Positions 5,672 through 33,154 of a stretch of 64,000 nt of DNA are shown here, piece after piece. Both the position numbers and the translations under genes were made by a program. The notes under the pieces are model-generated. The model saw only the letters and a program-made list of their open reading frames with translations, searched no databases and was not told the DNA's origin. Every line of letters begins with the position of its first letter. Position 1 is the first letter of the stretch. Source of the DNA: Aplysia californica. Lineage: Eukaryota. Location: the NCBI RefSeq assembly GCF_000002075.1, contig NW_004797486.1, forward strand, positions 929,806-993,805. Reading direction: 5' to 3'.

Positions 5672-5803
5672 GTAAGAAGTTTGAATTATGAATATCACTA
5701 ACGTGAACCTTGTAGTATGTAGTAGGGTTATAGGTCTAAATCGTTCTAATCTATTGACGACCAAAACCGTGTGGAGTTATGCATTGCAATATTGTATTGG
5801 GAT

Positions 5804-8010: not shown

Positions 8011-8019
8011 ACAAGCAAT

Positions 8020-8141
8020 CTGTCCCCGTGGTTTTATGCACCCTGCATAATTTAGCAAAAATTTGATCATTTCTTTACATAATTTCTGATTATTTTCCTT
8101 TATCATTCTTTGTTAAAATTAACAGAATCGCGTAATTTCAC
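8020..8141. mobile_element. MITE family M1, truncated at the LINE 5' end
   Basis: Left TIR and internal sequence match 7497 copy; stops where LINE A begins. Confidence 0.8.
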
Positions 8142-8867
8142 TACCCCCAGTGGGTCGGGGGGATATATATATAGACCCACTGCTCCGCCAGCAGGAGGTG
8201 CAACCCCTTGACTGGTGAGTTGTCGCCCATGGACATCTACGCTCAGGTGCACATGGGCGACACTTGTTTTGGTGTATCGTCTGTCTTCTATCATCATCTT
8301 TCTTCCTTCTTGACGGGGGACGGGGCTTTCGTCCTTCCCCGAGCTGACCGGGGAATAAAATACAAATAGTTCCCCCCCCCCCCCCCCGGGCTGGTGGGAT
8401 GCCACTCGTACGTCACTAGCTCTTTGACGTAGGGGTGACATCTTTTGTCCGCTCTTGTTATGTCTTCTGTCCATCTATCTATCTCTCCGATCTGTTGACC
8501 GAAGGTCCGGTCCAGCAAAAAAATAGACCCCAAATCCCCGCAACCCGAGGCACCCTGTTGACCGTGGGGTGTGACCCGAACGACCGGAGAAGGGGACCCT
8601 GGTGGCTGAGGTGTGGCTTCCCACACCAACACTCCACTTTGGCCCTGGATTCGGTCTAGACGGGCGGGTGCAGCGGCCTACAGCACTCAATTGGTTGCGA
8701 CCGGTTTTTGGCCAATCTTGGTTAGAAGGCAAGATTTCTTGCCGTCTGATTTGGGAGTATACCTCCAGGGTAACCCTGACACCAGCTATAGACTTCCGAG
8801 CGGTGTCCCCTTGTTGGACTCGGTGGCGGGTGGGGAGCCCTGGAGATGAATAAAAAACAAAATATAC

Positions 8868-10310: not shown

Positions 10311-11075
10311 AAATGGCAGTTCTTCAGTGGAACATTCGCGGTTTGCGTGCAAACCAGGCAGAACTCTTATCTTTTGACCTCACACACCCCAAATGTAATC
10401 TGTGTACCAGAAACTAAATTGCCAACACCCACATTCACATTAAACAACTATCAAACTTACAACCAAATATACACCGACAACCAAATCGCCTCTGGGGGCA
10501 ACTCCATTTTAATAAATAACCAAACACTACACAGACAAATACAACTAAACACAACACTTCAGGCAGTTGCGGTCAGGGTCACCCTACACCGTCCTATAAC
10601 TATCCGTTCAATATACATCCCTCCAAATTATCCTCTATCTTTAAGTAAGAGAACTAATAAACCTCAGAGACCAGCTCCCATAACCCTTCATCATGTTGGG
10701 AGATTTTAATGCCCATAGCCCTCTTTGGGGAAATGAACCAACTAACACTAAAGGTAAAATCATAGAAGATTTCTTAACAAAAACTAATACTAGTATTTTT
10801 AACGACAATTCCCCAACATTTCAAAATTCAAATAACCTAAACTTTTCATCCATAGATTTAACCCTATGTGATCCTGACCTAATTCCAGACTTTCAGTGGT
10901 CGGTCCTGGACTACCCACACGGATCGGACCACTTCCACATCAACCTAATTCCAGACTTTCCACACCGAACTCCTATCCCGGACCGTTTCAATCTTAAAAG
11001 AGCGGACTGGGATGGGTTTCACATGGAATGTCTGGAGAAACTCAATCCATCTCAAACACAAACTTTTGAACGATT

Positions 11076-11925
11076 CGTCGCCTATCACACGAAAGGGCGT
11101 ATTCCAGATTTTGGCAGTTTTGAGTTGTTACTTGTTACTACTAGTAGATAGCGCTGCCTCAGATCTATGTTCACACGAAACGGCGTATCCCTAGCTTTAA
11201 AATAGCAGCACTAGCAGTAAAAAATCAAAAAGCTAACACTCAGCGCCAACGAATCAGACGAAACGGCGTACACAGGCTTATGCCTTTTCGTGTGCAAAAA
11301 ATGATACAAAGTTTTATCAATTCTATTCGCACGAAAAGACGTATACCTTGGATACGCCCCTTCGTGTGAGCGACAGGAACACTTTTGTCTTTTTTTCTGG
11401 CATAGGCCAGGGCCGTATAACGTAATATCATAGTAAAACTAGATTCTAGGCCCTCCTCTAATGATGCAATAGGCCGGATACACAACACAGAGTACACGCC
11501 TTGTGCTGCAGCGAATCCTGCTTGTGCAAGAGTGAAAATGAGGCAGTCCTTATTGTGTTGCCTTATTATTATAGCCTACACTTGGTTACTGTTGCTTGCA
11601 GCTTACTGTCACACACAACGTGATCTGCTTGTCTGCTGATTATTGGAAACCATTAGAAAAAGCAAACTTGGGTTTGATCAAATTTAAATCAGATCTACTT
11701 TTTGTCCAACAATACATATGAATATTGCTCAGCTATATATATATATTTTTCCAATAGTGTATTATTCTACACTCATTAACTAGAAGGCAACGCTATCTAG
11801 ACACCCTCCCCCAGGGCAGTGCTACTGCAGTGATAAAAACATCAGGATTTAGACTTTGTTATATTGAGCCGAAGACAGGTCTACTAGGCGAGCCATGTAA
11901 GTTGCCCCTAAATGTTTATATTTTA

Positions 11926-11994
<69 letters not shown>

Positions 11995-13749
11995 ACACAA
12001 GAAACTCAAACCTAAATCGTTCTTTAGCTTGTACTCAGACTGTCGGGATTTTTCTTGTGTATTAGGCCCAGAATGGCAAGTTCGCATTTCAATGAAAGTG
12101 ACTCCGACTTTGTCAGATGACATTCCGTTAGCTAAACTTTGAAATGTAGGCTTACAATGAAAATTGAATTTTCTGATCAACACGAGGCTGAGAATGAAGA
12201 CACGTCTCTTGGCCTGGGTGACTTCGATGATTCGGACACGGATCATTTCCTAGAAGTTCCAGTATTTTGTAGTCAAAAGGAAAGACAGGGCAATCAACAA
12301 ACTCTGAATCCATATGAAACCCACTGTAGTAACGAACGGCTACCAGAATCATTTGAAGTTGAAGAGTAAGCCCGCCAGGCGTCGCCAAAGAAACGAAGAG
12401 AATCATCTCGAAGAACGATGCAAAAAAGAAAGCGACAATCTGGCGAAGAGTACATGAGCGCCGACACGAAAAAGGTTGTTCCAGCACGAATGATGGGAAA
12501 GGGCTGCGTTGGAATGGAATGTACGAGAGCTGGCCGTCAGTGTTCTGGAATCTCAGGAAAGGACAGGAGGGAGATATTTCAGGACTTTTTCAGGACAGTT
12601 TATAACCTGGCTGACCTGCAGAAGCAGCGAGAGTTCGTTGCGTAGCATATTGTGACGACTGAGCCCAAGCTCTTGACGCAGCAAAACGCATGCTTATTAC
12701 ATCACAGTCAATGGAAAGCGCTTGAAAGTGTGTAGGAACACATTCTTTGCAACCTTGGGTATTTCAGAGAAATGTGCCCGAGTTGTTTTGTCAAAGATTA
12801 CGGAGACCGGCATTGTGGAAGAAGACAAGCGAGGGGGCAGGCAATCGGAGCAGATGAAGACAAAAGGAGAACAAATTAGGGAGATGACCAGTCAACACAT
12901 AGACAGATTTCTACGCGTGGAATCGCACTACTGTAGGGCCTCTTCCAGCAAAGAGTATCTCGACCCAGACCTCACATTGTCCAAAATGTACGACATGTCC
13001 GTGAAAAAAATCCATGCAATGACATCCCAGGTTTTCACACATTTCAGACGAGTGTTCAAGACAAAAAAACCTGGCCTTTCATAGTCCTTAAAAAGGACTA
13101 ATGCTCACTCTGCAACTCTTAATTTATAATAGGCACGATGCAGAAAAACAAAAGGTGCGACAACTTAGGGAGGATTGCAAGAAGATGGTTCAAGCTGACC
13201 CCAGCATTCTGGCTGGGAACTTTGATCTCCAGCAGGTCATATACTTGCCAATTTCACATGAAGATGCTTTGTTCTANNNNNNNNNNNNNNNNNNNNNNNN
13301 NNNNNNNNNNNNNNNNNNNNNNNNNNNNNNNNNNNNNNNNNNNNNNNNNNNNNNNNNNNNNNNNNNNNNNNNNNNNNNNNNNNNNNNNNNNNNNNNNNNN
13401 NNNNNNTCTGAAGACTGAAATTAATAGTGTGGACACTCAAACACAGGGCGTGTACATGGGCGTATACACTGATTTTGGACAGGACAAAAAATTGAACAAT
13501 CACACGAAAGGGCGTATGCCAACAGATGGCACATTTTCGAAGTGAAATTATAAAAAACAGTGCAAAACTAATCTTGCTCGTTGTTTGATATCTTATCATG
13601 CCCACATTATCCAAATATCCCGATGCTAGGATGCAGTTTACTAAAATGACAAGGGAAAAGCATGAAGCAACCAAAGTCTGAAAATCTTTAAATCGCTCTC
13701 CTGAAAAAGTAAGAAAACAGGGATACGCCCTTTCATGTGACAGGCGACG
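11076..13749 (+). mobile_element. Sola1-type DNA transposon
   Basis: ~29-bp TIR cgtcgcct(a/g)tcaca(c/t)gaaagggcgtat; 4-bp TSD GATT (11072-11075, 13750-13753); transposase remnants VCRNTFFATLGIS, DKRGG, ESHYCRASSSKEYL, FDLQQV. Confidence 0.85.
11925..11998. repeat. (CA)n microsatellite
   Basis: Directly visible, inside the Sola1 element. Confidence 0.95.
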
Positions 13750-15724
13750 GATTTCATGAAACCCTTCTCGAAATCGTTCAAAAACACATACCAAAATTAT
13801 CCATCAAACCCCGAAAAAATAAATGTTGGTTCACTGAAGACTGCCAAAAAGCTGTTGCGGCCAAAAAAATCAGCTCTCAGGAAGTTCGTCAACTCTAAAA
13901 CAAACGAAGACCTCATTAATTTCAAAATTGCGCGAAGAATAATCAGAACGGCCAAAAAAATAAACATCTTTTCGAAATTATGTCTCTAAAATAAACAACA
14001 ACACACCAATGCACAAAGTCTGGAAGATGATAAAGAAATTAAAACGGACTAAAAAAGACACAATCAAACACATCCTAAAACCGAATAACTCCTTCGTAGA
14101 AACCGAAAAAACAGTAGCTGACTGTATAGCATCAACTCTTTCCGGAAATTCCTCTACCCACAATTACAACCCTGAATTCAAAAAAATAAAAATGTCTTCT
14201 GAAAAGACAACTGTTGATTTTACCTCTTCAAATGAAGAAAACTATAATTGCAGATTTTCTCTTAATGAATTAAAATGTAATATTGCAGAACTATCAAACA
14301 CAGCTCTAGGCCCTGATCAAATACACAACGAAATCATCAAACGTCTTCCAGACGAAACACTCCTATTACTCCTTGATATTTACAATGAACTCTGGCATTC
14401 TCAACAATTTCCGAACAGTTGGCGTTTTGCCACTATTATACCAATCCCAAAACCAGGAAAAGATCACTCTAATCCATCAAACTACCGTCCCATAGCCCTT
14501 ACAAACTGTTTCTGCAAACTTATGGAAAAACTTATTAACAAACGTCTAATGTGGTTTCTCGAAACCTCAAACTCCTTATCCAATTTCCGATGCGGTTTTC
14601 GCAAAAATCGCTCTACTATTGACCATCTCGTCCGACTTGAAACTTTCATTCGGGAAGCTTTCATTCGAAAAGAGCACCTTGTGGTTATTTTTTCGACTTA
14701 GAAAAAGCCTTCGACACCACATGGAAACATGGTATTTTACAATACCTGCGTGACTTGGGCTTACGCGGAAATCTTTTCAAGTAAAAGTAGGTTCAACCCT
14801 ATCAAATTTACACACCCAAGAAGAAGGTGTCCCCCAGGGAAGCATCTTATCGCCCATTCTTTTCGAAATCAAAATCAATTCCATCCCAAAAACCCTTCAA
14901 ACCAATATTGACTGCTCACTTTACGTTGACGACTTCCTGATCTGCTATAAATCCAAATCCAAAATGGTTCACATTGAACGCCAGCTTCAGCTGCAACTCC
15001 ATAAACTGGAAACTTGGGCAAACGGGCACGGGTTCAAATTTTCCACATTAAAAACAAACTTGGTACATTTTTGTTTGTCGCACAAGTGTGTGCGACAACC
15101 AGATTTATATTTGTTCGGAGAGAAAATTCCTGTTAAAAAACAAGCTCGTTTCCTGGGCGTAATCTTTGACAATAAACTTTCTTTCCTGCCTCACTTGAAA
15201 GACCTAAAGACGAGGTGTCAGAGTGCTCTCAACGCCTTAAAAGTATTATGCAATCCTGAATGGGGAGGAGATACTGAAATACTTCTTTAACTTTACCGTT
15301 CCCTTGTCCGTTCCAGATTGGACGATGCCAGTCCTGTTTACGGATCAGCCAGAAAGTCTTACCTCAAAATTTTAGACCCTGTTCAGAACCAAGGCCTTCG
15401 CCTTTCCCTAGGCGCTTTTCGTACTTCACCTGTAGAAAGTTTAGAGGCAGAAGCGCATGAACCATTTTTAGAACTTAGAAGGAAAAAACTCTTTGCAGTA
15501 CGCTTTGAAACTTAGCTCAGTCCCCCAAAACCCAGCCAACAAATGTGTCTTTGGCTTTCCCGAAGATCTAAAAACTCTAACCTCCTTAGGAAATAAAGTA
15601 AGCCCTTTCGGAATAAGAATCCAGAATCTTAAAGACATTGATTTTTCTGAAGACATAATCGAGCCCTTTGCCATGTCCAGCATACCTCCATAGCATTTAA
15701 CCAAACCTAACATAGATACTAGTG

Positions 15725-17563
15725 ACCCCCAGTGGGTCGGGGGGATATAAATAGACCCACTGCTTCGTCTGCAGAAGGTGCAACCCCTTCAAAGGCGGAG
15801 TGTCGCACAGGGACCCCAACCCTCTGGGATCCGTGAGCGACACTTACTTTGGTGTATCCTCCTCTTCTCCTTCCTTCTTTCTTTCTTCTTCTATCTTTCC
15901 TACCACCGCTGACCTCATGTGCAGCAAAACGAGAGGTCACCCATCCCACAGAGTGGGCGCCTTGTTGACCGTGAGGTGCGACCCGTGCGGAGGGAAACCG
16001 GGTACCTGGCGGTTGAGGTGAGATCAGTCCACGGACTGTCCCTCACCAACACACCTCTTTGGCCCAGGTTTTCCTCTTAGACGGGAGGGTGGCACGGCCC
16101 ATGCCACTCAATCGGTTGAGAGCTGAAACCCCATCAAGCCCTGGGTCAATCTTGACGGGAGGGTCTTGTACTTTCTCGTTGAGAGTATAGCTCCGAGGTA
16201 GCCCTGGCACAGGTCATCCGAGCAATGTGTCCCCTTGTTGGGCTCCGTGGCGGGCGGGGAGCCCCGGAGTCGAATCAAATACAAAACTCTCATGGTATCC
16301 AAATCAAAACAAGACCCTTCCCCAGCTCCCAACGTTAAAAAGTCTCGGCTCGCGGAAGCGGGTGCGGCCGCCGAGCCGAGCAAAAATTCAAAAACCAGTA
16401 AACGGACCTTTACCGTTGCTTCTTTCCTCCCTTCTCCCAGGGAGCTCCCGAAGCAGCCGTACGTGGCCATCTGCTGCAAAGAAGACGCACAGAAGAAGAT
16501 CACTGATCTAAATTTGTTCAAGACGGGAGATGCACTACGACAGGTTCTGGGATACATTCCTACGAATGTCCAGAAGCTGTCCTCTGGTGTACTCCTCGTC
16601 AAGTGCGCAACTGAAGACGAAGTGACCAAACTCCTGGATACCACGACCTTCGGCGGTATTCCATGTAGGTCCGAGCGCTACCAGAAATTCAACCGCTCGA
16701 AAGGCGTCGTCCGCAGCCATGAGCTGAAAGGCTGCTCCATGGAAGAAATTGTGGAGCACTGTGAGGGAGTGGTCGAAGCCCGCCGGATTACTCTTCGGCG
16801 GGGAGAGACTACTATTGAAACGAACACGATCGTCCTTACTTTCGAATCGTGTCGCCCTCCAGCCACCGTTCGGGCATCTTACTTGGTACTCGACGTACGA
16901 CCCTATGTGCCGAACCCTCTGCGCTGTTTCAAGTGTCAGAAGTTCGGCCATAGCCAGTCACGGTGCGTGCTCCAGTCTGTGGGAGAGCCACTGGGAAAAA
17001 CCAGAAAAATAATAAACTATATGAAATAAAACCCAAACTAGAACAGCGAAATCCTTCGGATCTCTCCAGAAGAGACGAAGTCATTTTTACTCGATTGCGC
17101 ATCGGACACACTGCCCTGACCCACAAATACCTCCTACAGGGAGATGAGAAGCCGTTCTGTGTCGGATGCGACACAGATTTTACCATTAGACACATTTTAA
17201 CAGAATGTCTAGACTTTGGAGAAATCCGAAGGAAATATTATAAATGCAAGAAATTGCAGGATATTTTTTCTTTCGTTGTTCCCAGCAGAATTTTAAATTT
17301 TATAAAGGCCATTGGCCATTATGGCGAGTTGTAGAGTGAATTTGATATTTTTAAAAATTTTTATTGTTACTTAAAAGTCGTTTTAGATCACAAATGTATT
17401 TACACCGAATTTGAATATTTTAACTTTTTAGCATTTTAAAGTAAATTAGTTAACCAGTCGTGAAGTGAACTTTCGCAGAGGTGAACAACTTGTGTTTCGC
17501 GCGCTCATATGACCTTAGCAGTTGCGAGCGCCGTAAAACCTTATACTATACATACATACATAC
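15725..17563 (+). mobile_element. I/Nimb-clade LINE 'B' 5' part (5'UTR + partial ORF1) fused to a LINE 3' end (ORF2 C-terminus, 3'UTR, (TACA)n tail)
   Basis: 5' end cccccagtgggtc like LINE A; ORF1 from ATG 16292 to first knuckle RCFKCQKFGHSQSRC; then jumps to RRDEVIFTRLRIGHT...CVGC...HILTEC*; terminal stem-loop and catacata repeats. Confidence 0.85.
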
Positions 17564-18030
17564 AAAAAAAAAACGCTCGTTTCCTGGGCGTATTCTTCGA
17601 CAAAAAACTTCCACACATAAATGACCTGTAGAAAGTTTAAAGGCAGAAGCTCACAAACGATCTCAAGATAGCTCTAGTACGCTTTGAAACTTAGCTTAGT
17701 TCCCCGAAACCGAGCCCACACGCGTTTTTGGCCTTTCCAAAGATCTACAAACTTGAAATAAAGTCGGCGCTTTTGTAATGAGAATCCAAAACGACCTTGA
17801 AGATATTGATTTTTCTGAAAACACCATCGAACCCTTTACCATGTCGAGTATACCTCAACGGCTTTCAGCTTAATCGTATATAAAAACAAGTCTTGAAAAA
17901 CACATCAAAAAAACTAGAGACAGGCTACGTACCTTAAAGCATACAATCAACCTTTAAAAACATCATAAAGTAGAGTAACTTTTTTACAGATGAATAAAAA
18001 TAATGCTGTTGTCTCTCTGCTGCACAGTTT
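17564..18030 (+). mobile_element. Older deleted fragment of the LINE A family (post-RT region)
   Basis: Aligns by eye with 15137-15700 (gctcgtttcctgggcgt; cctgtagaaagttta; gtacgctttgaaacttagct; gatttttctgaa). Confidence 0.7.
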
Positions 18031-18043
18031 GGCACTGTCGACT

Positions 18044-18222
18044 TGGTCTCTGTGGTTTAGCGTTTTGGCACTTCGCTATCGCACGCAGGAGACTTAAGTT
18101 CGATTCCAGAGTGGGTAGGAAATTGGAGGATGTATCCCTCTCAGCCTGTGTTGTCCCTGACAGGTAGGGCCAGAAACCCACCTCCTAAATGATCCAAGAG
18201 TGTCAATGGGGGCCGTTAAAAA
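18044..18222 (+). mobile_element. Short tRNA-derived SINE relic
   Basis: A-box tggtttagcg, B-box-like agttcgattcc, ends gggggccgttaaaaaa. Confidence 0.45.
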
Positions 18223-18297
18223 ATTCGAAGTCGAAAGGCAGAAAAGTAATTACACAAATCGATAACTTTTAAAAATCTTAACACTTTTTCGTTTCAG

Positions 18298-21200
18298 CGC
18301 CGCAAAATCAGCAGATATGGACGACGGAAAGCGGCCCTCTGATTCCAGATGCGAGATCACAACTGCTGTCTGTATACCCTTACCGGTTAGCTGGTCCTGC
18401 GTACGCAACACAGCACCCTGGAAATTTGAATCCTTACGCACAGGCTTTTTGGAATCATGCTGGCGTTAGACTCCCCCCAATGTTGGCTGGACACACCTTT
18501 AGTACCATGTCTGCACCTGGTCCGCAGTGGATTCCGGGAATGGCACCTTCGAGTAACTTTGGAATAGGAGCTCCACCAATACCATATTATTATGGGATGA
18601 ACCCGACAGTGACCTCAGCTCAAGACGGTCGCGAATTAGGTGAAATCGTTAGAACAGATAAAAGGCAGAACACTAATGACGATACGCGTATTGACTCTGA
18701 CCCTAATAAACAATTCTACGAGCCAATTTCTCCCCCTAAAACAAGCCACACAGAATATGAGGCTCGAGCTCGCACTCTCCAGTCATCTTTGAACTTTGAT
18801 CGGCAATCGATGCACAATATTTCAGCCTTTCATCATCAGTCTCAGCCTCAACCAACGTCCTCGTTTTCGACAGATTATCCATACCATCGTTCCAACCAGA
18901 ACGTATCGGGGCCTGTGTTTCCACAAGGAGTACAGACTGGCCAATACTCTCCAATTTGTCGCGGTTCAGGAGGTGTAAAAAAATCGGAAAACTTGCGGCG
19001 AAAAGCCCTCTTGAACTCAGCATCATCAGCTCTAACCGTTACTGATTCAACACAACCACCGAATGCTGCACTGGATCTAGCTACAAACGTAAACGACAAA
19101 GGGCCCGAGAACACCTCTTGCGTCTCCAAACCATCATCAGATAACCAAACGACGTCACTGGATCTGGTAAACCGACAGAACTCGGCAACTTCTTCAACCC
19201 ATACCAAAACGTCTCATCACAACCCTGGCGATCAAAGCAATCCTTTACCCCAAATTAGCCAAGAAGAATTAACAAATCGTTATTATCAAGCTATGTACTC
19301 AAACTTAACGCAGTATGACCATCAAGCAATCCTATCTGATACTTACCAGGCGCAATTATTACGGAGTATGCTTTTAAATTCCCCTAATGCGCAATTCGAT
19401 TATTCAAAACATGTTCTTCTGCAAAACCTTCCTCCTGGCGATAGAGTCAGCCATTCTGATACTACTATGCTCACCCAAAACAATTCAACAAAGGCATCAT
19501 CTCGAGCATCCAAGAGGACAGAATCTACTGTAAATGTCGGTTCTTCAACGTCTAGGCAACACGCACAAGTCACTCTAGGAACAGAAAACTCTGGACCATC
19601 TGAGGCAGTACAGTTTCCTCGGGATTTCAACTATTTTAATCGTTTACATCAGTCAGAACATTTGGCAGCGCCAGTGAGAGTTCCGGAACTGGCACCACCA
19701 CAACAAAATTCACCCCGCAAGGCAAAAAGGGGCGGTAAAAACAGTAGAGGTGGAAGAGGGAAAGGTTTGCAAAATGCTGGCACTGGAACCCCAATTGAAT
19801 TCCTACATCAAGAGGCCCCGGCAGAACCGACGATTTGCAGTTCTACTATGGTTAGCACTGGAGCTTGCACAGATGTTTACCATCCCACCCAATCGTCAGC
19901 CCATTTACAACAACCAAAGCAGCAGCAACAATCACTAGAGCAGCTCCAAAGACAGGCGCTTCAGCATCAGGACCAAGATCAACATCCACAGCAACAGCGT
20001 CAACATCTAGAACAGCAGCCACAACAACAACAGCGTCATCATCTAGAACAGCAACAACAACCACAACGACCAGGACAACTACAACAGAGTCCACAGCCAG
20101 AGCAGCAGCAGCAGCAACAACAACAACAAAAACAACAACAGCAGTGTAAACAACCAAATCAGCAACCACAGCGCCATCAGCCTGAACAGCAACAACAGCA
20201 GCATCAACAGCTAGAGCATGAGATACAACAGCACCAAAAGTCAGAACTACAGCTACAACAGCTAGAACAGGAACAACAACAGCGTCTGCAAGTCCGTGAA
20301 CAGCAACAGCACTGTCTAGAGCTAAGCCTACAACAGCACCAAGGACTAAAGCAGTACCAACAACTTAAACAGCTGGAACAGCAACCACAACAGCGCCAAC
20401 AGCCCGAGCAACAACAAGATCAGCAACAACAAGATCAGCAACAACAAGATCAGCACCAACATTCAGAGCAGGAACAACAACAGCACCAACAGCCAGAGAA
20501 GCAGCTACAACTTCAACATCGATCACCTCATAAAGCTCAACAGTCCGCGCAAATAGGAAACCACCAACAACATCAACAAGAGCAGTGGCAAAACCAGCAA
20601 GATTTGCCACAATCTGAACAGAGAAGAATAAAACCTCATGAACTGGAGCTGAAACGAAGAAAACAGTTACAAAACCAACAGATGCAACAGCAGCAGTGGT
20701 GGACACCGTCACGTCCTCCATACCTTATGAAAAATGAGAACCGTGCATCTGAAAATTCTCAACTTTTTGATTTGGGTAGAGGGTCGGCAAACGCGGGCCA
20801 ACTGGTTGGTAATTTGTCTTCCGAATCCCTGGAATCCGCAAAAATTAATTTATCCGATACTCTTAGAGACAAATCTCACTCTGTTACCCAAACGTCACAG
20901 AAACCCAGTTCCAGTTCTTTTCAGCACAACATTGTCGCTAAGGCTCATCGAAAAGATTTTCCTTCTCAGACTTCAACACATTCACAAGAAACCGCTGAAG
21001 GCTCAGAGGAAAATGTTTTTACTCATGAGAGAGTAAACAGCAACATTCCTAACTTGCAAGAAAATGGAAATGTGCCTAAGCAAAAACGTTCTCAGAATCA
21101 GACACTTCAGCATTCTCGATCTATTGTGAGCAGTAATGAACTCTTTAACACTGGTCAAAATATTATTACAAATAGTCCAACCACTGAGAAAAATGTCAAT

Positions 21201-24200
21201 GATGCTTCACTTTCTACTAACATTTCTTCGCCGCAACAAACAGCCCAATTTTTGTCGAGCAGTAATCTAAACCAAAAAGACAACTGCAGTGCTGATTCCA
21301 GGTCTACTTTGGATACTATATCAAACACCCGAATGGAATTGGTTGACGAAGTAGAAATCACAGGAAAACTAATTCCTGACAGCAAACAGACCGAAGGCTG
21401 GGGATATTCACAAACCTCTTCAAAAACTGCCACGACACACACTTTATCTGAAGCAGGGTTGGACGAGAAAAGTAATGAGGTTCATACTAGAACACCTTTC
21501 AATAACTCTAAAGAAGAATATGAAATTGGGTTATCGGTTCCCAAACATTATGGATGGTGGCAACACAAGAAAGACGACAAACATTCCAAAGGTTTTATGC
21601 ACCAGGAACATGAACAATATGTATATCCAAATATAGGTGGTCATAATAAGATCTCTAATGACGGTGCCTCTATCACTAACTTCGAAGAACATCGCTCAGA
21701 GATAAAAAAGAGTGAGCAAATATTCGATCAGCGAGCAGGGCATGGGGATGGTTGTACTAGTGCCCATTCTAGCGTTGCAGAAGTGGTGAAATCACCAGGA
21801 AATACATCCTTACTTTCATTTCCGAGTGAACGCTTCAACCATGTCTTCAACACAAGGAATGAGAAAAATCTTGCGAAAGCGCAGTTCAAAGAACAAAAAT
21901 CTTTGTATAACATACACGATTCGGGTACGAAGATGACACGGGTGCAACATGAAAGTGATGACCCTGGTTTGTATGCAAACCAAAAACTGTCATTCGGTGG
22001 TACGATTGGAGGGGAGTACGATCCAGTGTCATCAGAAGTGCTGTTGCCAAAATGTCGCCGCGGTACTGAAGAAGGTGATTCTTTCATCAATTCTCCCGTG
22101 AAACCGGAGCTCTCTTATCAAGATTCGAGTCAAAGACAAAAGGATGTCAGCTCGTCAGGACCACTTGAGCCTCGCTCTGAATCTTCAAATGTATCGACCT
22201 CTTCCCATTTACAAGACGGTTCTCAACCGTTTAAGGACAACTCAACAAGTAACAGAAACACACATCCTGTTCCTGAATATGCCCAGTCATTACTTGGCCT
22301 AAACAAATTAACTCGAAATTGGCTACCCAGTAATACCCAGGAAAGCGGACCTCAGAATGTCTTAACTGGCAAATATACTCACTCATTTGGAGAATCTGGT
22401 CCTTCCAAAATGGTTCCCCCAAAAAGCGATAATGGAAGGGGGAAAATTCTGGATTCCATTGTGAACTCTCTGCATTCTAACCAGAGACCGTCAAATGAAC
22501 AAACTGTAAACAGTCGTTTGTCGAATTCTTGTGACACTAGGACGGCTAAAAGAACTTGCACCGATGATCAAGACTTCAACAGAAAATGGCAAAGGGTTCC
22601 CCAAGCCCTTTCATACTTAGATACTCAAGTTGAAACGAATCCTGAAAATCTGAGTGGAAAACAAAGCTCTAAGCAAAGTGACCAAGCTGACAGTGAGCTA
22701 ACAACATCCTCGATACTTGCCACAATACCCCCAGGATTTTACGTGGATAATTACCAGTCTATTCGTGCCGCTGGCTCCGAATTCCCCAAAGGAGATGGAT
22801 CGAACAATACCCGGAAGGTAAGTGATCGTTTTAAGACTGGTGAGGACGATTGTTCTCTAATGAATTCACAAGGAGATCAGGGACACTTCTCATTGGGAAA
22901 AAGACCGGTTAGGAAGAATTCGTGTCGACAAATATCAGAACCATACAATGTTACAAATATAAATAAAATGAATAATCACCTGGTCTTACCTGATACTCGT
23001 AAAGAAGCACATACCATAAACAGGCAATCAAGGCATAAACAGAGCGGCTTTTATCTGGAGAAAATGGAAGGGCCCCAAACAAAGAAGGGCCGTGTGGACA
23101 AGACAATCGTAAAGCTTTTAAATATCGAAGAAGTCTTATATCAGGCGGAAATGGAATTTCTCCAAGTGAAGAAACGTCATTTGGAAGAGGTAATAGCTAA
23201 AATAAGGAATGCCAACAGAAGCTCAAGTCAGATAAAAGAGGAATTGCTTCGCCAGCACACACACCTGGACGAGAAAACAAGTCAGTTCTATCTAAAAAAT
23301 ACTGTGAAACGCACTGCTGCTCATACTGGTCAAGAGGCAAAGGAGTTTATAAACAGCGATGGCAGTAAGAAAGCGGGCCTCCAGGACCTAGAAAACTTGT
23401 TGCGTATTGAGGGAACACATCGTGAGGAGACTACATTTCAAAAAAATATAAAAGATAAACACTTTGATCCGTGCGCTCTCATTAGGCTCCAGTCAAAGAG
23501 GCTGCCGGTGCAGGGGCAAAGCTCAGTTCAAGCAACCGAAGTTTCTACAGCAGGAAAAAGACTGCTTGCACCTTCGATAAACGTACATACTTCACAAAAG
23601 GAAAGAGACCATGGTGAAACTGATTGCTTTGGCCACAAACGTGCAAAGACGGAGGACCAAGTCGATAAGCGAAACATAAAAGAAATTAATGAGGAGTTTG
23701 AACTTACAGGCTGGTCACCGAGGTCAACAGAGCTACAGTTGAGGAACAGGCAGTTGATCAGTTTCCAGGCACCGGCAGAGTTGGTAACTACTCATGGAGA
23801 ATATGTCCCTACTCTGAACGTTGTGGGGAACTCTGAACAAAACAGTGATAGGGCAAGACGGTCGGTTGAGCAAAATATAAGCACACGAAACATAAACAAG
23901 GATTCAGATTCGAACTCAAAGCTCGAGAAGGCGAAAAAGAATCGGAAACCAACCGACTTTTATCAGTGTGAAAGGATTCTCCAAAAAGCGAAGAAAACAA
24001 ATTCATCAGCCAAATCAGCCAAAAAAATTGCCGAGAATTCTTTAAAGTTGTCGAAGAGCATTGTTTCTAGGAAGAAAGACCCACATGGATACAGAAGGCT
24101 TGCTGGTACCGGTAACTTACATTCGACAAAAAATCCAAAGAATAGACCAGTGGGTTCCCCTATGAAGATATATGATATCAATCCAATACGGAGGACTTTC

Positions 24201-27200
24201 GGAGACGACTATTTTGACGACGTTCCTGTAGTAGGAAAATACTCATCTGGAAGTGGCAGAGATAAGTGTAGACGAACTGCGGAGGCAAGTGGCGAAAGAG
24301 TTGAGCTTTCTACAAAACTCTACCACCCATGTTCAAGTTTTCAAAAGGCATTACGCCAAACGCGGAAAAAAGACAACGCTGTTTCTTTGACACCAGTGGC
24401 ATCAAGGAAACACGACACTGTACCTTTGCTTCATAGGACCCCGTCTAAACCCAATCAATCATTGTCAAAAAGTTCGAAAAGAAATCGAATTGAATCAAAG
24501 TGTTCAAAGAATATAAACAAACGAATTGATGGATGTTCAAAGTTCAAAACTCGTCTTCCAAGTCTCACACACGGTTCTAGAATCAAAAACCTTGAAAACT
24601 ATGCCTATGCACGAGAATTAAGCTTGATTGAGAGGAAAGGTGATAAGATCAAGCCTGCCCTTTCCTCGAGTAAGCAGGTACAGCACCCGTCACCCAAACA
24701 TGTATGCGCTTCTGGAACTGAGAATACAAGTGAATTTGAAAGACACGTAAACAAAGTGAAGAGACGCTCTGTAACTTTGAAGCGAATTTGTTTCAAAACA
24801 AAAGACAAAACCACAACGTTTTCTGACACAACAGCACAGCGAGGACGACCCCACTTGGCAAAGTTCAAAACGAAAGACTATTCTCCAGCAGCGCTGCCTA
24901 ACACAACACCCATGCCTGTGTCCGCTGGAGTGAGCACAAGCACGACAATAGCCTCTACAGTTCTAAGTAGTAAAATGGCAAAATCAACGGACTCGACAAT
25001 GAAATCACTCACCTCGAAAAGTAAAGCAAAGCATCGACAGTGCTCAAAGTCAAGCCCAAAAGCTGATTCTCCAATAATACAAGTGCTTCCACGAAGGAGT
25101 GTTAACAAAGCAAGAACCTTTAGCGTTTCAAAAAGTCCCATGAAACGATCACCAATACCACAAAGCAGATCGAAACAATCCATAGCTAAAGACGGGTTTA
25201 TTTCTCCTCTATTAAGCCCACCGATACATGTGCCTCCCCTAGCGAATTCAAGCTTGGTCAGCTCCCTTCAATCCCCAAAGAAGACATCAGGAAACATTAC
25301 TATCAAATCTTGTGCCACTTATACTTCAACAAAGCACCTGTCAGTAACTTCCAAGGCAATGCGCCAGTCTACTCCAACTAATCGTCTGACAATTAAGTCA
25401 AAGGCAAAGCGCCACTCTCTTGAAACGATCAGGAGTGTATCTCCGCAGATGACGACAAACAGAACCGAGAGATATATTCCGAATAAAAAGAGAAAAGAGT
25501 CAGAAGTCATGAAACAAACGCTGGAAAAACGAGGAATATCAATACAATCGACAGAAAACGATGAGTTTTTGGCAATGCATTCTAGCATGGCCAAACCTGT
25601 GCTTACACAAGTGAATACACATATGACTAGGTGCCCTCATAATATTCCAAAGATAATGAGGACAAAATCAGGAGACATGCCAGTCGAGTGTAAACAGAAG
25701 CTAACCCGTATACATTTTCTAAAGAGACACACAACGGGGCATCATCCCAAAGCAAAACAACAGAGGGTAACCAGAACTGCACCGTACCAACTAGGTTCAA
25801 GCAGCATTAACTCTTCTCACACCCAAAAAGAAAAGACAACGAGACCAGTGTTTTCGACGAAAACTTCAAGAGAACAAAATATGAAGTCCTCAAAGAAGCC
25901 CATTGCTCTTGTAATGCAGGCGAGCCAGTCTAAACGTGGGTCTAAGGGAGAAGTCTTGATCAAATTTACTGAGCCACCCACAGTTCAAACGACATCGGTC
26001 CAGGCGGAAACGTCGCTTTCTGGAGATGACCTGCAAAGAAAACAAAACCAATCAAGAGAAAAGGAAGGAAGACATGATCTGCCAGCGATGAACTTAAGTG
26101 TTTCCAAGGCCGTGTTCTCATCAATGAGTAGAATCTCGCCGGCGACAAGTAATCGTTATGAGAAGACCAACTGGTTTGGAACAAAGCCAGTTGTCATCTC
26201 CAATGAGGCTGACGACAAGAATCTGAATAGAAAATCTACGCCATCTCTGCCTGGTTCACGGAGACAAAAGCCGCTTATAGAAACATTAATAACGAAATCT
26301 CCGTCCTGTTCTGAAAACTTGAGTAACAGTTCTGTATGCCAGGTTCGGCAAACAGCAGGGGCTCTTGGTGATAACAAAATAAGTAATCCAAAACATACAC
26401 CTTGTGCAGCAAGCACAAGTTACACTGCGCTTGTCCCACACAGTGACACATCATTGGGAAAGTCGAACCTCGAGTCTGCAAAGGGAATACACGTAAACCA
26501 AATCAAAGCAAATCTGTGTAGGAGCAAAACCCGTAACGTCAACACAACCCGAGGTAAAGACAGCGGAGGCCGAGTTTCAAAGTATTCCGGCCTGAAACCT
26601 TCGTCTGCACAAAGAACTAATCTTCAATTGTATAAAGATTCCATAAGCTTATTGCCAGATGCGTTAAATAGTCTGAAAAAGAATTCTACTGTGTCTAGCG
26701 GACTTTCTTCATCGACGACATCAGAAGCGTCATTGCAAACTATATCAAATAGAAACCGAAACAATAAAGTGAGCTCCCACAGCATTAGAAGGAATTTTTC
26801 ACCTGGACAAAAAGGTAGCGAATATCAATTTACAACTCCAGCTACAGGGAATATTGACGAAAGCACAGAATCAAACTATAATGTAAAGCAAGCGCTAACT
26901 CCAAATTCTACACGAGAGACTCTAATAATTACACCCATAAACAAGGTTCAAATGGCGAGTTCTGTATCAACAAAAAAACAAGATCCAAGAGAATTCTCTA
27001 AGTTTTATAATCAGAAACGTGTTGAAAAACGGCAAGGGTCTTTGCAAAAATCATCTGCAAATGAACTAAGCCAAATGCCACTTCAAAGTGCGATAACTGT
27101 TGCTGTAGAACCAACGTCCAGGCCATTAACTGATGGTTTGCCGTCGGTACCCTTCCAAACGACAGAAACCGTAGTGGTCACATCATCGCCTCTACAGTGG

Positions 27201-28742
27201 CCCCCGCCAGCACCAGACCCAGCACATATCGCTATCAAGTCAGCTGAGAGAGTCAATCCACAAACGCTCGGGCCGGCACGAGGAGTTTTCCCAAAGACTG
27301 CGCCAAAAGCCTCTAGAATAACACCATGTATATCGTCCTTGGCTACACCTCTCTTTATACAGCCCCGGGCCTCTAATCTTCCATGCATTTCTAAAACCCT
27401 TATGTCAGGGCCATATCCCACAAAACTCCAACACGTTCCCTTACCTCAAAACTCGCCACTATTCCAATCGTTCCCACAATGTGGCCACCCACAGCAAACC
27501 GCCTTGCCTTCCGAATCAAGAACCCAGTCCTCACTGCCACAGAACTACTTAACATGTCAACTGATGCCACAAAGCTCAGCGTTGTCGCTTTTCACGCCTG
27601 CGACACTGTCAACTCAGAATCGAATGGGAGCGTGGTCCGTAAAAAGAGGTCTTTTACCTGATCCTGTAACCCCCATACGGCAAACAGTGCCAGAACTGTC
27701 GTATCTGTCAGAACTACCACCATTGTGTACGCAATCCCAATCGTTGATGACGCATTTCCCGCCTACCTCGCAATCAGGATCATTCCATGCTCAGCTAGCG
27801 CCAGTTTTATCAAGTTCAACCGTGCCAACACAACAAGCACTGCCTACAGCATCATTCCCATCACCACCACCTCCACCACCATCATTACCACCACCACCAC
27901 CCCCACNNNNNNNNNNNNNNNNNNNNNNNNNNNNNNNNNNNNNNNNNNNNNNNNNNNNNNNNNNNNNNNNNNNNNNNNNNNNNNNNNNNNNNNNNNNNNN
28001 NNNNNNNNNNNNNNNNNNNNNNNNNNNNNNNNNNNNNNNNNNNNNNNNNNNNNNNNNNNNNNNNNNNNNNNNNNNNNNNNNNNNNNNNNNNNNNNNNNNN
28101 NNNNNNNNNNNNNNNNNNNNNNNNNNNNNNNNNNNNNNNNNNNNNNNNNNNNNNNNNNNNNNNNNNNNNNNNNNNNNNNNNNNNNNNNNNNNNNNNNNNN
28201 NNNNNNNNNNNNNNNNNNNNNNNNNNNNNNNNNNNNNNNNNNNNNNNNNNNNNNNNNNNNNNNNNNNNNNNNNNNNNNNNNNNNNNNNNNNNNNNNNNNN
28301 NNNNNNNNNNNNNNNNNNNNNNNNNNNNNNNNNNNNNNNNNNNNNGCCACCACCACCACCTCCACCCCCATCCCCATCATTACCACCACCTCCACTTCCC
28401 ACATCGCCGCCACCCCCACCACCTCCACCACCTCCATCTCTACCAGCCTCACCATCGTATTCACGGTCATCATCACCATCCCCACAACCATTCTCACCAC
28501 CACCACCGCTCGCACAACCATATTCACCATCATCACCACCGCTCGCACAACCATATTCACCATCATCACCACCGCTAGCACAACCATATTCACCCTCATC
28601 ACCACCGCTATCCTCACCTTTATCACCACCGCCGTCGCCACTATCACCGCCACCACTATCACCGCCACCACTATCACCGCCACCACGTAAGCGTTCACGG
28701 ACAGCTTATCACAAAGTCGTATATACAACTTTCCCCCGCTAA
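18298..28742 (+). CDS. Giant exon encoding ~3,480-aa predicted intrinsically disordered protein (poly-Q, S/T/N-rich, basic, poly-Pro)
   Basis: Uninterrupted frame >10 kb (one N-gap inside the poly-Pro tract); frame is open upstream of the listed TTG back to a polypyrimidine acceptor tttttcgtttcag at 18297; AATAAA at 29522 and 29541. No domain recognised. Confidence 0.85.
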
Positions 28743-29521
28743 GCCATTCTTTCAGAGAACCATGTTCCGAGGAGAGAAACGGCAATGTCTCGAACTTCAT
28801 CCTACACCACACTCGTCTGCAGTGGTACAACGACACAAAGCGCTCGACCCACATGTTGCAACAGCACCAGCATTTATTCCACTTCGCTAGACATGTTACG
28901 ATTCAACGTACCAGCCCTCTGTCACAACAGCAGCAACATTTCCAACCAGTTTGACACGTTTTCAATCGACGTTCCAGCCGTGTTTTATACGACAACGTCA
29001 CCCCGTCAAGTCATTTGGAACACCAGAGCCAATATTTCCGATCAGATTCAGAGCCACATCTTTGGTGCACTCAACGCCAATGTCATTATCTGTTCAGGTG
29101 CGACCAACACCATCCACAATCTGAAGAAAGAACGCCACCTCACGATTTGAAACAACGGTCATTACCGTTCATGTAAATTGTTATTTCCGCACAGTCTGTT
29201 CCTACACATGTTGAGCCATTGACGCAACCACTGGACACAACGCTGGGCCCTTGTATAGTGGAACCATCCTCATAACTAAATTGTCGAAACAACAATTCTT
29301 GTCATTAGGTTAGGCTAACTGAAAAGCCCAAAAAAAAATCCTTATTGTAACTGGAATCATCACTGTAGGCTTACATGTAATTCCTAGCACTTGGCGTTTG
29401 CCCTCTGCAGTCCCTTTGACAGCCATAAGATCAACGCTGTTTAAAATTAACTATTCTGCATCCATGAAAGTAATTGTTTCGAAACACCGTCCCCATGGGA
29501 ATAAGAATAAGTGAATTAAAA

Positions 29522-29546
29522 AATAAAGTTCTGTCTTCGGAATAAA
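29522..29546 (+). terminator. Tandem AATAAA polyadenylation signals for the giant-exon gene
   Basis: aataaagttctgtcttcggaataaagttttttt downstream of the ORF. Confidence 0.5.
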
Positions 29547-31463
29547 GTTTTTTTAAATTTTAAGTTAAAGAGCCATCAACCCACACCACTCACTAAACTC
29601 AGTGCCTAAACCGTTTTCCTTTTCACTCTTCAGATGATCTGAGAGAGAATACCCAAGCTTCTTTAGTGGCAACGTGGAGCAGCACTCAACAGATATTGTG
29701 CCATGAGGAGGTGGCAGTCTGACGTCATAAAAAAGCACAGCACTGACAAAATTAAGACATTTAAGGAAAAAACAACTTCTCGGAGAGTTGATCCAGTGGA
29801 CTTTCTCTTGCTACTGGGGAATAATGTCTGTCCCAGAACTTGGGTGGTTTGTACATGTTCTGGCATGACTTTTTTCTTTTCTTCTTCCTCTTTTTTTTGT
29901 TTGTTTGAAAGTGCTCCCTCCTTTCAAAATGTGACTGTAGTCATTGTCAAAACATCAAATTTCCAGAGCATACCAAAGACTTTAGAGTGACATCAAAACT
30001 ACAAATACAGAAATGTGGCGGTGGAAAGGGGAAAACATCGGGAACCGTATGAAATGAAACGTATAAAACAATCCACATTCCCTCCCCTCTCTCCTGTCAG
30101 GCATGCAGTATGCAGGCAAGCCCGCACACAGTAGCCCCCATAAAAAGCATTTCTCATGTATTAGATTAAAGAAGAATACCGCCTAGGCAATTAATTCTCC
30201 TATCATACCCTGCCTCCTCTTCCATTTCATCTTTATTTGAGTAGAGACATTTAGAACATTGGTAGGAAACCTGAGTCAAGACTGGGAAAGGTTCATTGTA
30301 GCCCTTAGCAAAAGGGGATAAAAATGTGTTACTTTAGTCTCTGAAATCATCTTATTTGTTGGATACCACTTTGAATCGTAACTAAATTTGAGTACATAAA
30401 TGTACCATCTTTGCGTGTAATTAAGTGTAAGCGTGAGGAGCTTGAAAGGGTAAGCGTTTGCAAGCACTTTTTTTCAATCACAAAAGTTTACTCTCTTGCA
30501 TTTTATACTTTTATGTTGTCTTTCTTGACAATGTCAATGATTTGTGTCGTTTTTCTCTTGCTTTCTAATTTTAAAAAACGTTGTACATTAATATATTATT
30601 TTCACTTTTTAAAAGGACAAACAATTCTAAAGAATTTGACGTTAAACTTTTTAACAATTACATGTAAAAGTATAAACATGACATTAATGCTTTACACATC
30701 TTACATAATAATATGAAATAGAAAGGGAGATTTTTCAAATTCCTTCAAATTCAGAATATTAATAATATTTTTATGAAAAATGATTAAATTTTCTGGAACT
30801 GAGATTCTAGGCCTTCAAATTCAAAGTTTTACTTATTGGCATCATGATGTACGAGCTTACTTCTCGCATTCATTGGGTATTGCTGTCCTTTGTGTAAATA
30901 CTACAAATAGTGTGTATTAAAACATTAGTAAAGGAATTCCTCGGAGAGATATAAAATGCAATAGAATTCAATTACTCGTACAATATATTTCGCTCAGTGG
31001 TATTAATTCATTTTTAGTGTTGCGTTGCAAAACATGTATTTATGAGAATAATGAATGATTAAAAAAGTATTGTCAATACAATTTTTAAGAACACGTTTTT
31101 TTAACGGATTTTCTCAATTTCCCCCAATTGTTTAAAAATAAATAAAATGTGTACCCAAAAAAATTGATCTATGGTAACCAACACATTACTGTGTAAGCTG
31201 TTGTAGGCCAAACAACTCATGGCTGCGTACTCAGTGTTTTTGATCCCCTTTCCAAATACGCCAATTCTAGTTACACTGGTTTTTTTTTACTTGTTTCCTT
31301 TCCATCAGAGGACTTTCATGACTACCAGCATCTGTGGTTACGACTACTAGTGTCTGTGGTGTAATGTTTGTGCTCTTTGTTATTACAAACACAAGATATG
31401 CGTTCGACTTCCCTGGTGAAGTACATGTATTATTAAGTCTCTCCGGCTGTCTGCTGTATTTTA

Positions 31464-31637
31464 CTGTGGCTTTATGCACCCCCACATAATTTAGCAAAAT
31501 TTTATCATTTTTGCATAATTTCTATTTTCCTTTATCATTCTTTGTTAAAATTAACAGAATCGCATAATTTCACATTATTTGGGCTCAGTTTGCATAATTT
31601 CATAATTGTTTTTGTGTGCATAAAACCACGGGGACAG
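31464..31637. mobile_element. MITE family M1 (left end eroded)
   Basis: Same internal sequence; right TIR gtgcataaaaccacggggacag. Confidence 0.8.
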
Positions 31638-33154
31638 ATCTCACTGTGCCCTTGAAGGCAGGGTTGAAGCAGCCAATTTACACTGTGTCAATGGGGTTCT
31701 AAAACATAATTATTTTGTTACATTCACATGACTTCACAAAGTCTTCTGGCTAATACATTTTACACCACCTGTCTTCCTGGGGTCTCAAGCATGGCAGCCT
31801 GTTTGTTTGGCATCCAGATGCTATCATTGACTAATTTCTGTCCCTGGTGACAGCAGGGAAGTAAGTTGAAATACCAATTCGGACATGGTTAGTGACGAAA
31901 TCCATGATCTTAAGATCGTGATTTATTTTAGTTTCTGAGGATTTGTCCTCTTGCATGCCCCGAAATCATGCGGAGAAGGGAGACGATCCTCTAAAAATAT
32001 CATGTTTTTAAAAAAAATTCATTAATCTTTTATTTTTTAAAAACAAAATGATCAGGAAAAAATGCAAATGTTAGGAAAAGAATATTGTTTGCAATGGGCC
32101 AGTTTCTGTGGTGGTACAGTATGGGCAAGTCATTTGTTTCTCCCATTATAGTTGTAACTATCAGGTTTTCACTCGTTACCCATCTATTTCATCAAATCAA
32201 AAGATAGCCAGTCCCTCTAGTGACTTAAAAATTCGTTGGCGGAGTGATGAAATCCCGTAACCCGCAATATTTTCGAAATTCGTTATTTTGTGGTTTACTG
32301 TCTTCTCCCACATTGTGTCAAAAGCAGAAGATTAAATTAGAAAGAGAAATTATGAAAGAAAAACTTACTATTGTGAACCGGCTTAATTGAAGCTCATAAC
32401 TGACATTGTCTGGTGCATTTACCTCGTATATACCTGATTGAATAAAGAAATATTTCATTCATTCATTCTTTTATTCATTCACTTTATATCAGTCAGTTCA
32501 GAAATGCAAATATGGTCATAAGTGAAGGAATTACATTATGTTAATCTATTTGAAATCCTGTTATAGGGATGACTATCGCGTTGGTAAACAAGATGTTCTC
32601 ATCAAGCACAAAGTTAACTCATAATTTAAGGCGACAGTCATACTGAACTTGAAATGACAGGTGACAATAGTCCTTACTATTAACTAAGTCTAGGTGACAA
32701 GAACAATGCACTCTCCAGATGTCAACATGCCTTTTTTTTTTTAAATCAAAGAGTGGATACGGTTTCATACCTTCTCGGACTATGAATCCGCTGAGTAGTC
32801 GAATCCTCCAGTTGTGGTTGAGACCAAACTGAACTTAACCATGTACTTGATGACCCTGAAGTCTTTAGAGGACATTGTGACAAATTTGCGCCCCAACAAC
32901 ACAAGTAATACGGACATTTTAATTTCCGTCTGATTTGAATATTTCCTTCCAACTGTGCTTATCACCTAGATCTTTACACCCTCCAAGGGCTGGTTTGGAA
33001 ACCACTGGGCAGACCACGTTCCACGAATTGACCCCAGCCACCATGTTGCAATCCTTTCCAGGGCTGTCCCTGAGTGATAATAATATGTGGGGTCAAGGAA
33101 GTATCAGCATCATCCCAGACTGAAGGCTCAATCCGAGTGGATCCGGGCGTTTCT

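What the first reader, a model, noticed from the sequence alone, without database searches (positions are those of the whole stretch)
18298..28742. Orphan ~3,480-aa disordered protein encoded by one >10-kb exon
Seen: a stop-free frame of >10 kb with no transposon insertion, in a neighbourhood full of them. Layout: Y/P/G-rich N-terminus, RGG/basic patch (SPRKAKRGGKNSRGGRGKG), ~260-aa Q/H/E tract (~19910-20700), long S/T/N region, one likely coiled coil (LLNIEEVLYQAEMEFLQVKKRHLEEVIAKIRN, ~23110-23300), K/R-rich half, poly-Pro end. No signal peptide, TM segment, TE or viral domain is evident. Inference: a maintained lineage-specific nuclear or germ-granule scaffold able to form condensates.
Basis: partly seen in the sequence, partly recalled or inferred. 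Interest (0 to 1): 0.7.

Follow-up and report, generated by a model that had tools for sequence, protein, structure and literature searches.

The report
Giant open frame hides retained intron
In a sea hare gene with no detectable relatives, RNA is usually cut less than halfway along a 10-kb reading frame, yet the discarded 5.9 kb shows no stop codon where it can be read and turns up unspliced in RNA, so it likely encodes a rarer, much longer and strongly positively charged form of a predicted floppy protein.

Summary
The open frame is real: 3,208 visible codons without a stop, 439 unread N, then 131 more codons in frame. But it is not simply one 10-kb exon. RNA contigs show the start ATG in a small upstream exon (5662), an acceptor at 18298, and splicing from a strong donor at 22817 to a last exon (29634) that adds 'MI-stop'. 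RefSeq (Aplysia californica) already holds this 1,512-aa form and a 948-aa form (donor 21125). The read-through form (about 3,484 aa) is not among those records. Its 5.9 kb are covered by unspliced RNA contigs in three runs, cannot be open by chance (about 1e-42), lack local repeats, and carry only in-frame indels (2 of 2, against 1 of 7 downstream). Its SNPs look neutral (pN/pS about 1, n=22). No homologue was found in any search. Best reading: an orphan, mostly disordered protein made in three nested lengths, where keeping the last intron adds a coiled coil, a basic region, poly-proline and an NLS-like end. Tissue, translation of the long form and condensate function are untested. The scan noted another giant orphan exon in an annelid (e1-7276401).

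The parts
5600..5671 (+). Upstream exon A. First in-frame ATG at 5662 gives M-K-R; an in-frame stop lies upstream in the same exon; donor GAG|GTAAGA
   Evidence: Loose ends of X7 and X9 at 18296 map to 5640 onward. RefSeq proteins start MKRAPQ. The 5' edge 5600 is inferred from an AG only.
5672..18297 (+). Intron A, 12.6 kb, holding broken LINE copies
18298..22817 (+). Exon B, 4,520 nt, ultra-long internal coding exon of the 1,512-aa form; near-neutral charge (net -7), pI 6.9
19910..20700 (+). Q-rich tract (127 Q in 264 aa) with a predicted Q/L/E helix at 20184-20378
21123..21131 (+). Weak internal donor ATT|GTGAGC after 21125, phase 0; gives the 948-aa form
   Evidence: XP_012938644.1 mapped to the window; not seen as a junction in the four runs laid
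22815..22823 (+). Strong donor AAG|GTAAGT after 22817, phase 0; best-scoring GT in the whole frame; gives the 1,512-aa form
22818..28742 (+). Read-through part: intron in the spliced forms, but an open frame of 1,974 codons (147 unread) ending at TAA 28740-28742
23100..23324 (+). Predicted amphipathic helix or coiled coil, only in the long form
   Evidence: AlphaFold2 single sequence, pLDDT about 70 at its core; 5 of 8 a/d positions hydrophobic in 28-residue windows
23100..27000 (+). Basic K/R/S/T region, net +122 over 1,300 aa
27860..28739 (+). Poly-proline tail (partly N), three YSPSSPP units in an 11-aa repeat, and an NLS-like RKRSR at 28686
   Evidence: the NLS label is a recalled consensus
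28743..29633 (+). Non-coding end of intron B; would be 3' UTR in the long form
   Evidence: An X7 contig runs from about 28595 to 29661; short X4 and X9 pieces
29634..32460 (+). Last exon C: ATG ATC TGA (M-I-stop) and a 2.8-kb 3' UTR; AATAAA at 32441
   Evidence: X4 and X9 contigs end at 32440, while DNA-like X1 has depth beyond it

Best explanation
This is an expressed orphan gene whose RNA is spliced at 22817 (annotated also at 21125) to a two-codon last exon, and whose last intron, seen unspliced in RNA and stop-free where readable, is likely kept open because a minor 3,484-aa form is translated in some cell type. SHOWN: exon structure, the junctions at 18298 and 22817, the open frame, unspliced RNA over most of intron B. 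ANNOTATED ONLY: the 948-aa form. INFERRED: donor choice works as a length switch. All forms share a neutral, disordered N-terminal part with scattered aromatic clusters and a Q-rich helix that would let the protein self-associate, as Q-rich coiled coils do. Skipping both donors would add a second coiled coil, about 1,300 aa of basic sequence, poly-proline and an NLS-like end, which would turn a neutral Q-rich protein into a nucleic-acid-binding, likely nuclear scaffold. Selection would act on frame, length and charge more than on individual residues.
For: Junctions: X7 and X9 join 5671 to 18298; X4, X7 and X9 join 22817 to 29634; one 4,256-nt X4 contig spans 20426-22817 plus 29632-31497. Two RefSeq isoforms match. 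Unspliced cover: X7 contigs at 22952-27131 and about 28595-29661 (across the stop codon); X9 at 22788-25786 (across the donor); short X4 pieces. X7 and X9 have zero depth in intron A at 17749-18097, and X7 has almost none at 32470-36249, so DNA carry-over is unlikely. Frame kept: 0 stops in 1,696 visible codons against 43-107 in the other five frames. Indels: 2 of 2 in the read-through are multiples of 3 (15 nt, 3 nt), against 1 of 7 listed in 28743-32440; chance that all six frame-shifting ones fall outside is about 0.01. Differences per base: exon B 0.23%, read-through 0.40%, non-coding 0.98%. No repeat match in the read-through. The basic region, second helix and NLS-like end all lie beyond the donor.
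Against: SNPs in the read-through look neutral: 17 non-synonymous, 5 synonymous, pN/pS 1.05, against 0.47 in exon B (11 and 7); neither differs significantly from 1 (p 0.62 and 0.10). No nonsense change among 22 SNPs is unremarkable (p 0.33). The in-frame contrast alone gives Fisher p 0.083, and the non-coding control is AT-richer, so it may mutate faster. No single contig spans the long form; no X7 or X9 contig covers 27521-27840. The X7 cover ends in the same non-genomic tail at A-rich spots (23604, 25829), which points to internal priming and could inflate pre-mRNA. The donor at 22817 is a perfect consensus, unlike the weak sites typical of retained coding introns. The RefSeq cluster holds no long form. 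439 bases of the frame are unread. Nothing here tests translation, location or self-association.
Confidence: 0.5

Rival explanations
1. Vestige: the 10.4-kb exon was once fully coding, a strong donor arose at 22817, and the 3' half is now an intron that has not yet decayed; the unspliced RNA is just slow-splicing pre-mRNA.
For: pN/pS about 1 in the 3' half. Consensus donor used in 3 of 3 RNA-type contig runs. Internal priming signs in X7. No long form in the RefSeq cluster.
Against: With about 1% non-coding diversity and at least 6 frame-shifting indels in 3.7 kb next door, about 7 would be expected in the 4.3 kb covered; none was seen. The reference has no stop in 1,696 codons and no local repeat insertion.
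Confidence: 0.2
3. Not a true orphan but a fast-evolved orthologue of a known large disordered animal protein, no longer recognisable by sequence (compatible with either splicing reading).
For: Long exons of ankyrins lose detectable homology between phyla while keeping their position (PMC5135030, passages). Best Atlas lead: BCOR-like cluster at 0.80.
Against: The gene has no conserved domain exon to anchor it: exon A gives 3 residues and exon C gives 2. No Pfam family. Only self hits. Atlas scores of 0.77-0.80 are at the level of shuffled proteins.
Confidence: 0.12
4. Assembly artefact, transposon or viral insert.
For: The neighbourhood is rich in LINE remnants, and part of the frame is unread.
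Against: Single copy, spliced with canonical sites, matched by contigs of three other runs at over 99% identity, no mobile-element domain.
Confidence: 0.02

Closest known systems
RefSeq XP_012938643.1 (1,512 aa) and XP_012938644.1 (948 aa), Aplysia californica
   Same: The same gene: same start exon, acceptor and last exon.
   Different: The cluster holds no read-through form. Their names ('mediator subunit 26', 'DDB_G0271606') most likely come from Q-rich low complexity; no Med26 or other Pfam family was found.
Ultra-long exons shortened at internal splice sites (RBMX/RBMXL2 targets such as ETAA1 exon 5 and ATRX exon 9; PMC11446547, abstract and passages)
   Same: A coding exon over 1,000 nt with internal splice sites that shorten the protein.
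   Different: There the full exon is the normal product of a conserved gene. Here the shortened form is the one annotated and seen in all three runs, the uncut form is terminal, and the gene is an orphan.
Exitrons (Marquez et al. 2015, as reviewed in PMC10985678, passages)
   Same: Sequence that is both intron and coding, length a multiple of three (6,816 nt), disordered product.
   Different: Intron B contains the long form's stop codon and 0.9 kb of non-coding sequence, has a strong donor, and is not the predominant form.
BRCA1-IRIS (PMC3325250, search listing with start of abstract only; the read-into-intron-11 detail is recalled)
   Same: A frame that runs on past the donor of a very long exon gives an alternative C-terminus.
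   Different: IRIS has 34 residues of its own (1,399 against 1,365 shared) and is shorter than the main product. Here read-through adds 1,974 residues and more than doubles the protein.
Giant ankyrin long exons (PMC5135030, passages)
   Same: Multi-kb optional coding sequence, among the longest open frames of a genome, too fast-evolving to align across phyla.
   Different: Those are cassette exons in a conserved multi-domain gene; this gene has no folded conserved domain.
Q-rich coiled-coil proteins such as ApCPEB (PMC7710910, passages)
   Same: A Q-rich tract with a predicted helix in a disordered protein, a known route to self-assembly.
   Different: No RRM or other RNA-binding domain, no sequence relation; assembly is untested here.

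Membership tests
Exitron | Spliceable with canonical 5' and 3' sites | tested here: met
   GT at 22818, AG at 29633, junction in X4, X7, X9
Exitron | Length a multiple of three | tested here: met
   6,816 nt, counting the 439 N as given
Exitron | No stop codon inside; lies wholly within a coding exon | tested here: not met
   TAA at 28740-28742 and 891 non-coding bases before the acceptor
Exitron | Weak splice signals | tested here: not met
   AAG|GTAAGT is the top-scoring donor in the frame (8.9 against 6.4 for the exon A donor)
Exitron | Retained form predominant, exported and translated | tested here: inconclusive
   Contig depth is lower over the intron in three runs, but contig depth cannot rank parts of a gene; export not testable
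Ultra-long internal exon | Internal exon over 1,000 nt | tested here: met
   18298-22817, 4,520 nt, spliced on both sides
Ultra-long internal exon | Internal splice sites held down by an RBMX-family protein | not testable with these tools
   Needs CLIP or knockdown
Mediator subunit 26 (RefSeq name) | TFIIS-N/Med26 domains (recalled) | tested here: not met
   No Pfam family at E <= 0.1 in the 3,208 visible residues
BCOR (Atlas lead) | BCOR, ankyrin and PUFD domains (recalled) | tested here: not met
   No Pfam hit; Atlas score 0.80 is at chance level
Germ-granule or condensate scaffold | Mostly disordered, low-complexity sequence | tested here: met
   FoldIndex below 0 for 84% and 72%; AlphaFold2 pLDDT under 50 for 1,116 of 1,198 and 279 of 347 residues, single-sequence and so weak evidence
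Germ-granule or condensate scaffold | Germline expression, granule localisation, phase separation | not testable with these tools
   Runs carry no tissue label; one polyA raw-read run (X11) has almost no depth on exon B, so expression is not ubiquitous
Orphan gene | No homologue outside the lineage | tested here: inconclusive
   Only self, but no genome of a related sea hare could be searched, and only residues at 20610-24200 had a search without a word index

The most novel reading that the evidence does not exclude
A domain-less orphan gene uses nested donors in one 10.4-kb frame as a ruler, making 948-, 1,512- and 3,484-aa disordered proteins. Keeping a 6.8-kb last intron adds nearly 2,000 residues that flip the protein from neutral and Q-rich to strongly basic, coiled-coil-bearing and nuclear: a splice-controlled switch in the material properties of a scaffold, held open by selection on frame and charge rather than on sequence, and missed by annotation.
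Probability: 0.35. Interest if true: 0.68.

Novelty: new variant of a known kind. Interest (0 to 1): 0.48.

Why it matters
If the long form is translated, an annotated 'intron' hides one of the longer coding stretches of this genome, and it is a clean case of a disordered region kept by selection on frame and composition while its residues drift. It gives a direct test (three natural lengths of one protein) of how disorder length and charge set localisation and assembly. It also shows that a long open frame read from DNA alone can misstate the protein commonly made. If the long form is not translated, it is a snapshot of half a gene being lost to a new splice donor. The gene's biological role remains a guess either way.

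Tried and rejected
Homology: the search for homologous proteins on residues 810-3150 against 1,764-5,614-aa proteins, 0 of 5,410 candidates; residues 1-535, only the gene's own record among 7,991 scored; residues 1515-2900 against shorter proteins, 0 of 7,993 scored; phmmer of 20610-24200 against 1.84 billion representatives, only self. Pfam: nothing above cut-off; four sub-threshold coiled-coil-type hits at 22860-23600 were rejected. Atlas: 0.77-0.80, chance level. No RNA holder was listed on record, and 11 same-species contig runs held next to none of the words; neither is used as evidence. Homodimer prediction of the 23070-23435 helix: no answer, score 0.01. Codon-usage similarity of the two halves (rho 0.68) is uninformative because the 3' UTR gives 0.63. 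Motif counts (16 motifs x 2 halves): CDK sites 5 vs 1.7, WW 2 vs 0.2 and RxxL 10 vs 4.7 in exon B are weak after 32 tests; YSPxSP x3 is one tandem repeat, so no RNA polymerase II CTD mimicry is claimed; SPKK-type sites are not enriched in the basic half (5 vs 4.4). No fold search was run because the models are low-confidence helices. Two indel rows inside a high-copy repeat (31507, 31577) and three beyond 38000 were dropped before the indel count; 15 further rows were not shown by the tool. Uncovered 27521-27840 in X7 and X9 is not read as absence. Literature: no paper holds either protein accession; searches for Aplysia tissue tables gave nothing on this gene; two searches gave no closer case; Kawachi et al. 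2021 is not held and was seen only as cited in PMC11446547. No supplement was opened; published expression tables may name the tissue. Earlier scan notes: nothing near, by sequence or by the second word search.
Full report
Observation. The frame runs stop to stop from 18282 to 28742 on the + strand. 3,208 codons are visibly open, 27907-28345 reads N, and 131 codons follow in the same frame with poly-proline on both sides. The other five frames hold 114-226 stops. The region is single copy in G000 and has no match to local repeats, against 23% of the upstream intron.

Gene structure from RNA. One search listed 24 runs, of which 10 hold the stretch. I laid X7, X9, X4 and X11 on 17400-27840 and X7, X9, X4 and X1 on 28690-40000. 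X7 and X9 contigs begin at the acceptor with a loose end that maps to 5640 onward. That exon supplies ATG AAG CGA in frame, with a stop upstream. X7 and X9 show a loose end after 22817 that maps to 29634, and one 4,256-nt X4 contig holds both 20426-22817 and 29632-31497. The last exon starts ATG ATC TGA and runs to about 32440, where an AATAAA lies. The predicted product, 1,512 aa, is RefSeq XP_012938643.1 of Aplysia californica. A second record, XP_012938644.1 (948 aa), uses a donor after 21125; I did not see that junction in the runs laid. X1 behaves as DNA, with even depth and a contig straight across the 29634 acceptor. X11, a polyA raw-read run of 1.5 billion letters, has almost no depth on exon B, so the gene is not expressed everywhere; no tissue is known. 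So the 'one 10-kb exon' is, in the mRNA commonly seen, a 4.5-kb exon followed by a 6.8-kb intron.

The read-through half. That intron holds 1,974 in-frame codons, 1,696 of them visible before the N. By composition the chance of that being open is about 1e-42, and 200 shuffles gave at most 193 codons. It is present in RNA-type contigs: X7 at 22952-27131 and about 28595-29661 (across the stop codon, ending 28 bases into the last exon, too few to count as a bridge), X9 at 22788-25786 (across the donor), and short X4 pieces. X7 and X9 show nothing in intron A at 17749-18097. Contig depth is lower there than on exon B in all three runs, which is a hint only. X7 contigs end in the same non-genomic tail at A-rich spots (23604, 25829, 30176), which I read as internal oligo-dT priming on + strand RNA (the primer identity is recalled). 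No contig spans the whole long form, so nuclear pre-mRNA is not excluded.

Is it still under selection? Both indels in the read-through are multiples of three (15 nt in X9, 3 nt in X7), and exon B has none (table complete). In 28743-32440, 6 of 7 listed indels are not multiples of three (two rows in a repeat dropped, 15 rows not shown). The chance that all six fall outside the 4.3 kb of covered read-through is about 0.01; the in-frame contrast alone gives Fisher p 0.083. Differences per base over listed contigs of three runs: exon B 31 in 13,377, read-through 35 in 8,688, non-coding 92 in 9,403; shared alleles are counted more than once and the control is AT-richer. Against: of the 40 SNPs shown (18 more not shown), the read-through has 17 non-synonymous and 5 synonymous (pN/pS 1.05) and exon B 11 and 7 (0.47), none nonsense; neither ratio is significant. 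This fits selection on frame and composition more than on residues, but also a recent release.

What the protein is. No Pfam family and no homologue in four searches; Atlas leads are at chance level. No related sea hare genome could be searched, so 'orphan' means not found, not proven. FoldIndex% of exon B and 72% of the read-through unfolded. Single-sequence AlphaFold2 gives confidence near 70 only for two helices, 20184-20378 in the Q tract and 23100-23324; 23900 onward was not modelled. Exon B is neutral (net -7, pI 6.9). The visible read-through is basic (net +145, pI 10.2) and ends in poly-proline, three YSPSSPP units and RKRSR, an NLS-like motif by recalled consensus.

Mechanism. Shown: three exons, the donor at 22817, an open and transcribed intron. 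Annotated: the donor at 21125. Inferred: donor choice sets protein length. The shared part would self-associate through its Q-rich helix, as reported for ApCPEB (PMC7710910, passages), and the long form would gain a dimerising helix, a nucleic-acid-binding basic region and nuclear targeting. Both kinds of stop codon lie downstream of the last exon junction, so junction-dependent decay is not expected (established knowledge), although the long form's 3' UTR would be 3.7 kb. I give this 0.5. The vestige reading gets 0.2, 'long form is the true product and the donors are cryptic' 0.15, an unrecognisable orthologue 0.12 and artefact 0.02.

Comparison. It works like an ultra-long exon shortened at internal sites (PMC11446547, abstract and passages) and like an exitron, but it fails exitron membership on the internal stop and the strong donor (PMC10985678, passages). 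Giant ankyrin exons show that such sequence can be functional yet unalignable (PMC5135030, passages). BRCA1-IRIS is a small-scale read-through (PMC3325250, listing only). No paper in the held library names either accession. An earlier scan note describes a giant orphan exon in an annelid dystrobrevin; I did not test it.

Verdict. A real, partly annotated gene. The interesting part is the 5.9-kb open frame inside an annotated intron. New variant of a known kind, interest 0.48.

Noticed in passing
window 1-1129 and 3913-5041: 99.2% identical duplicate of 1,129 bases, the first copy ending at an N run; a recent tandem duplication or an assembly duplication just upstream of exon A.
   Followed up: no
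window 8854-15290 and 16202-17334: Broken LINE copies in intron A on the sense strand: zinc-knuckle ORF1-like frames, endonuclease (PF14529) and reverse transcriptase (PF00078) pieces in several frames.
   Followed up: partly
window 37560-39588: Long contigs from X4, X9 and X7 cover this stretch without a long open frame: probably another transcript or the 3' UTR of a neighbour; strand unknown.
   Followed up: no
window 51785 onward, + strand: Gene with MORN repeats at 57882-58184 (PF02493); resembles radial spoke protein RSPH10B (recalled, not tested).
   Followed up: partly
L005:7432-7815 and L004:1062-3212: Upstream neighbour: a short frame resembling CC2D1/Lgd DM14 repeats (recalled; no Pfam hit) and a 717-codon open frame with no Pfam hit.
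   Followed up: partly
window 28686-28709: The long form's end RKRSRTAY resembles a homeodomain N-terminal arm (recalled), but no homeodomain follows in any frame.
   Followed up: partly
window 5600-5671: The X9 contig has 104 letters before the acceptor, more than exon A holds, so a further 5' UTR exon or a longer exon A exists; not located.
   Followed up: no
window 42404-42743; 12677-13418; 34377-35274: A 112-bp x3 tandem repeat, and two stretches that look like DNA transposon remnants by eye, with no Pfam family above cut-off.
   Followed up: no
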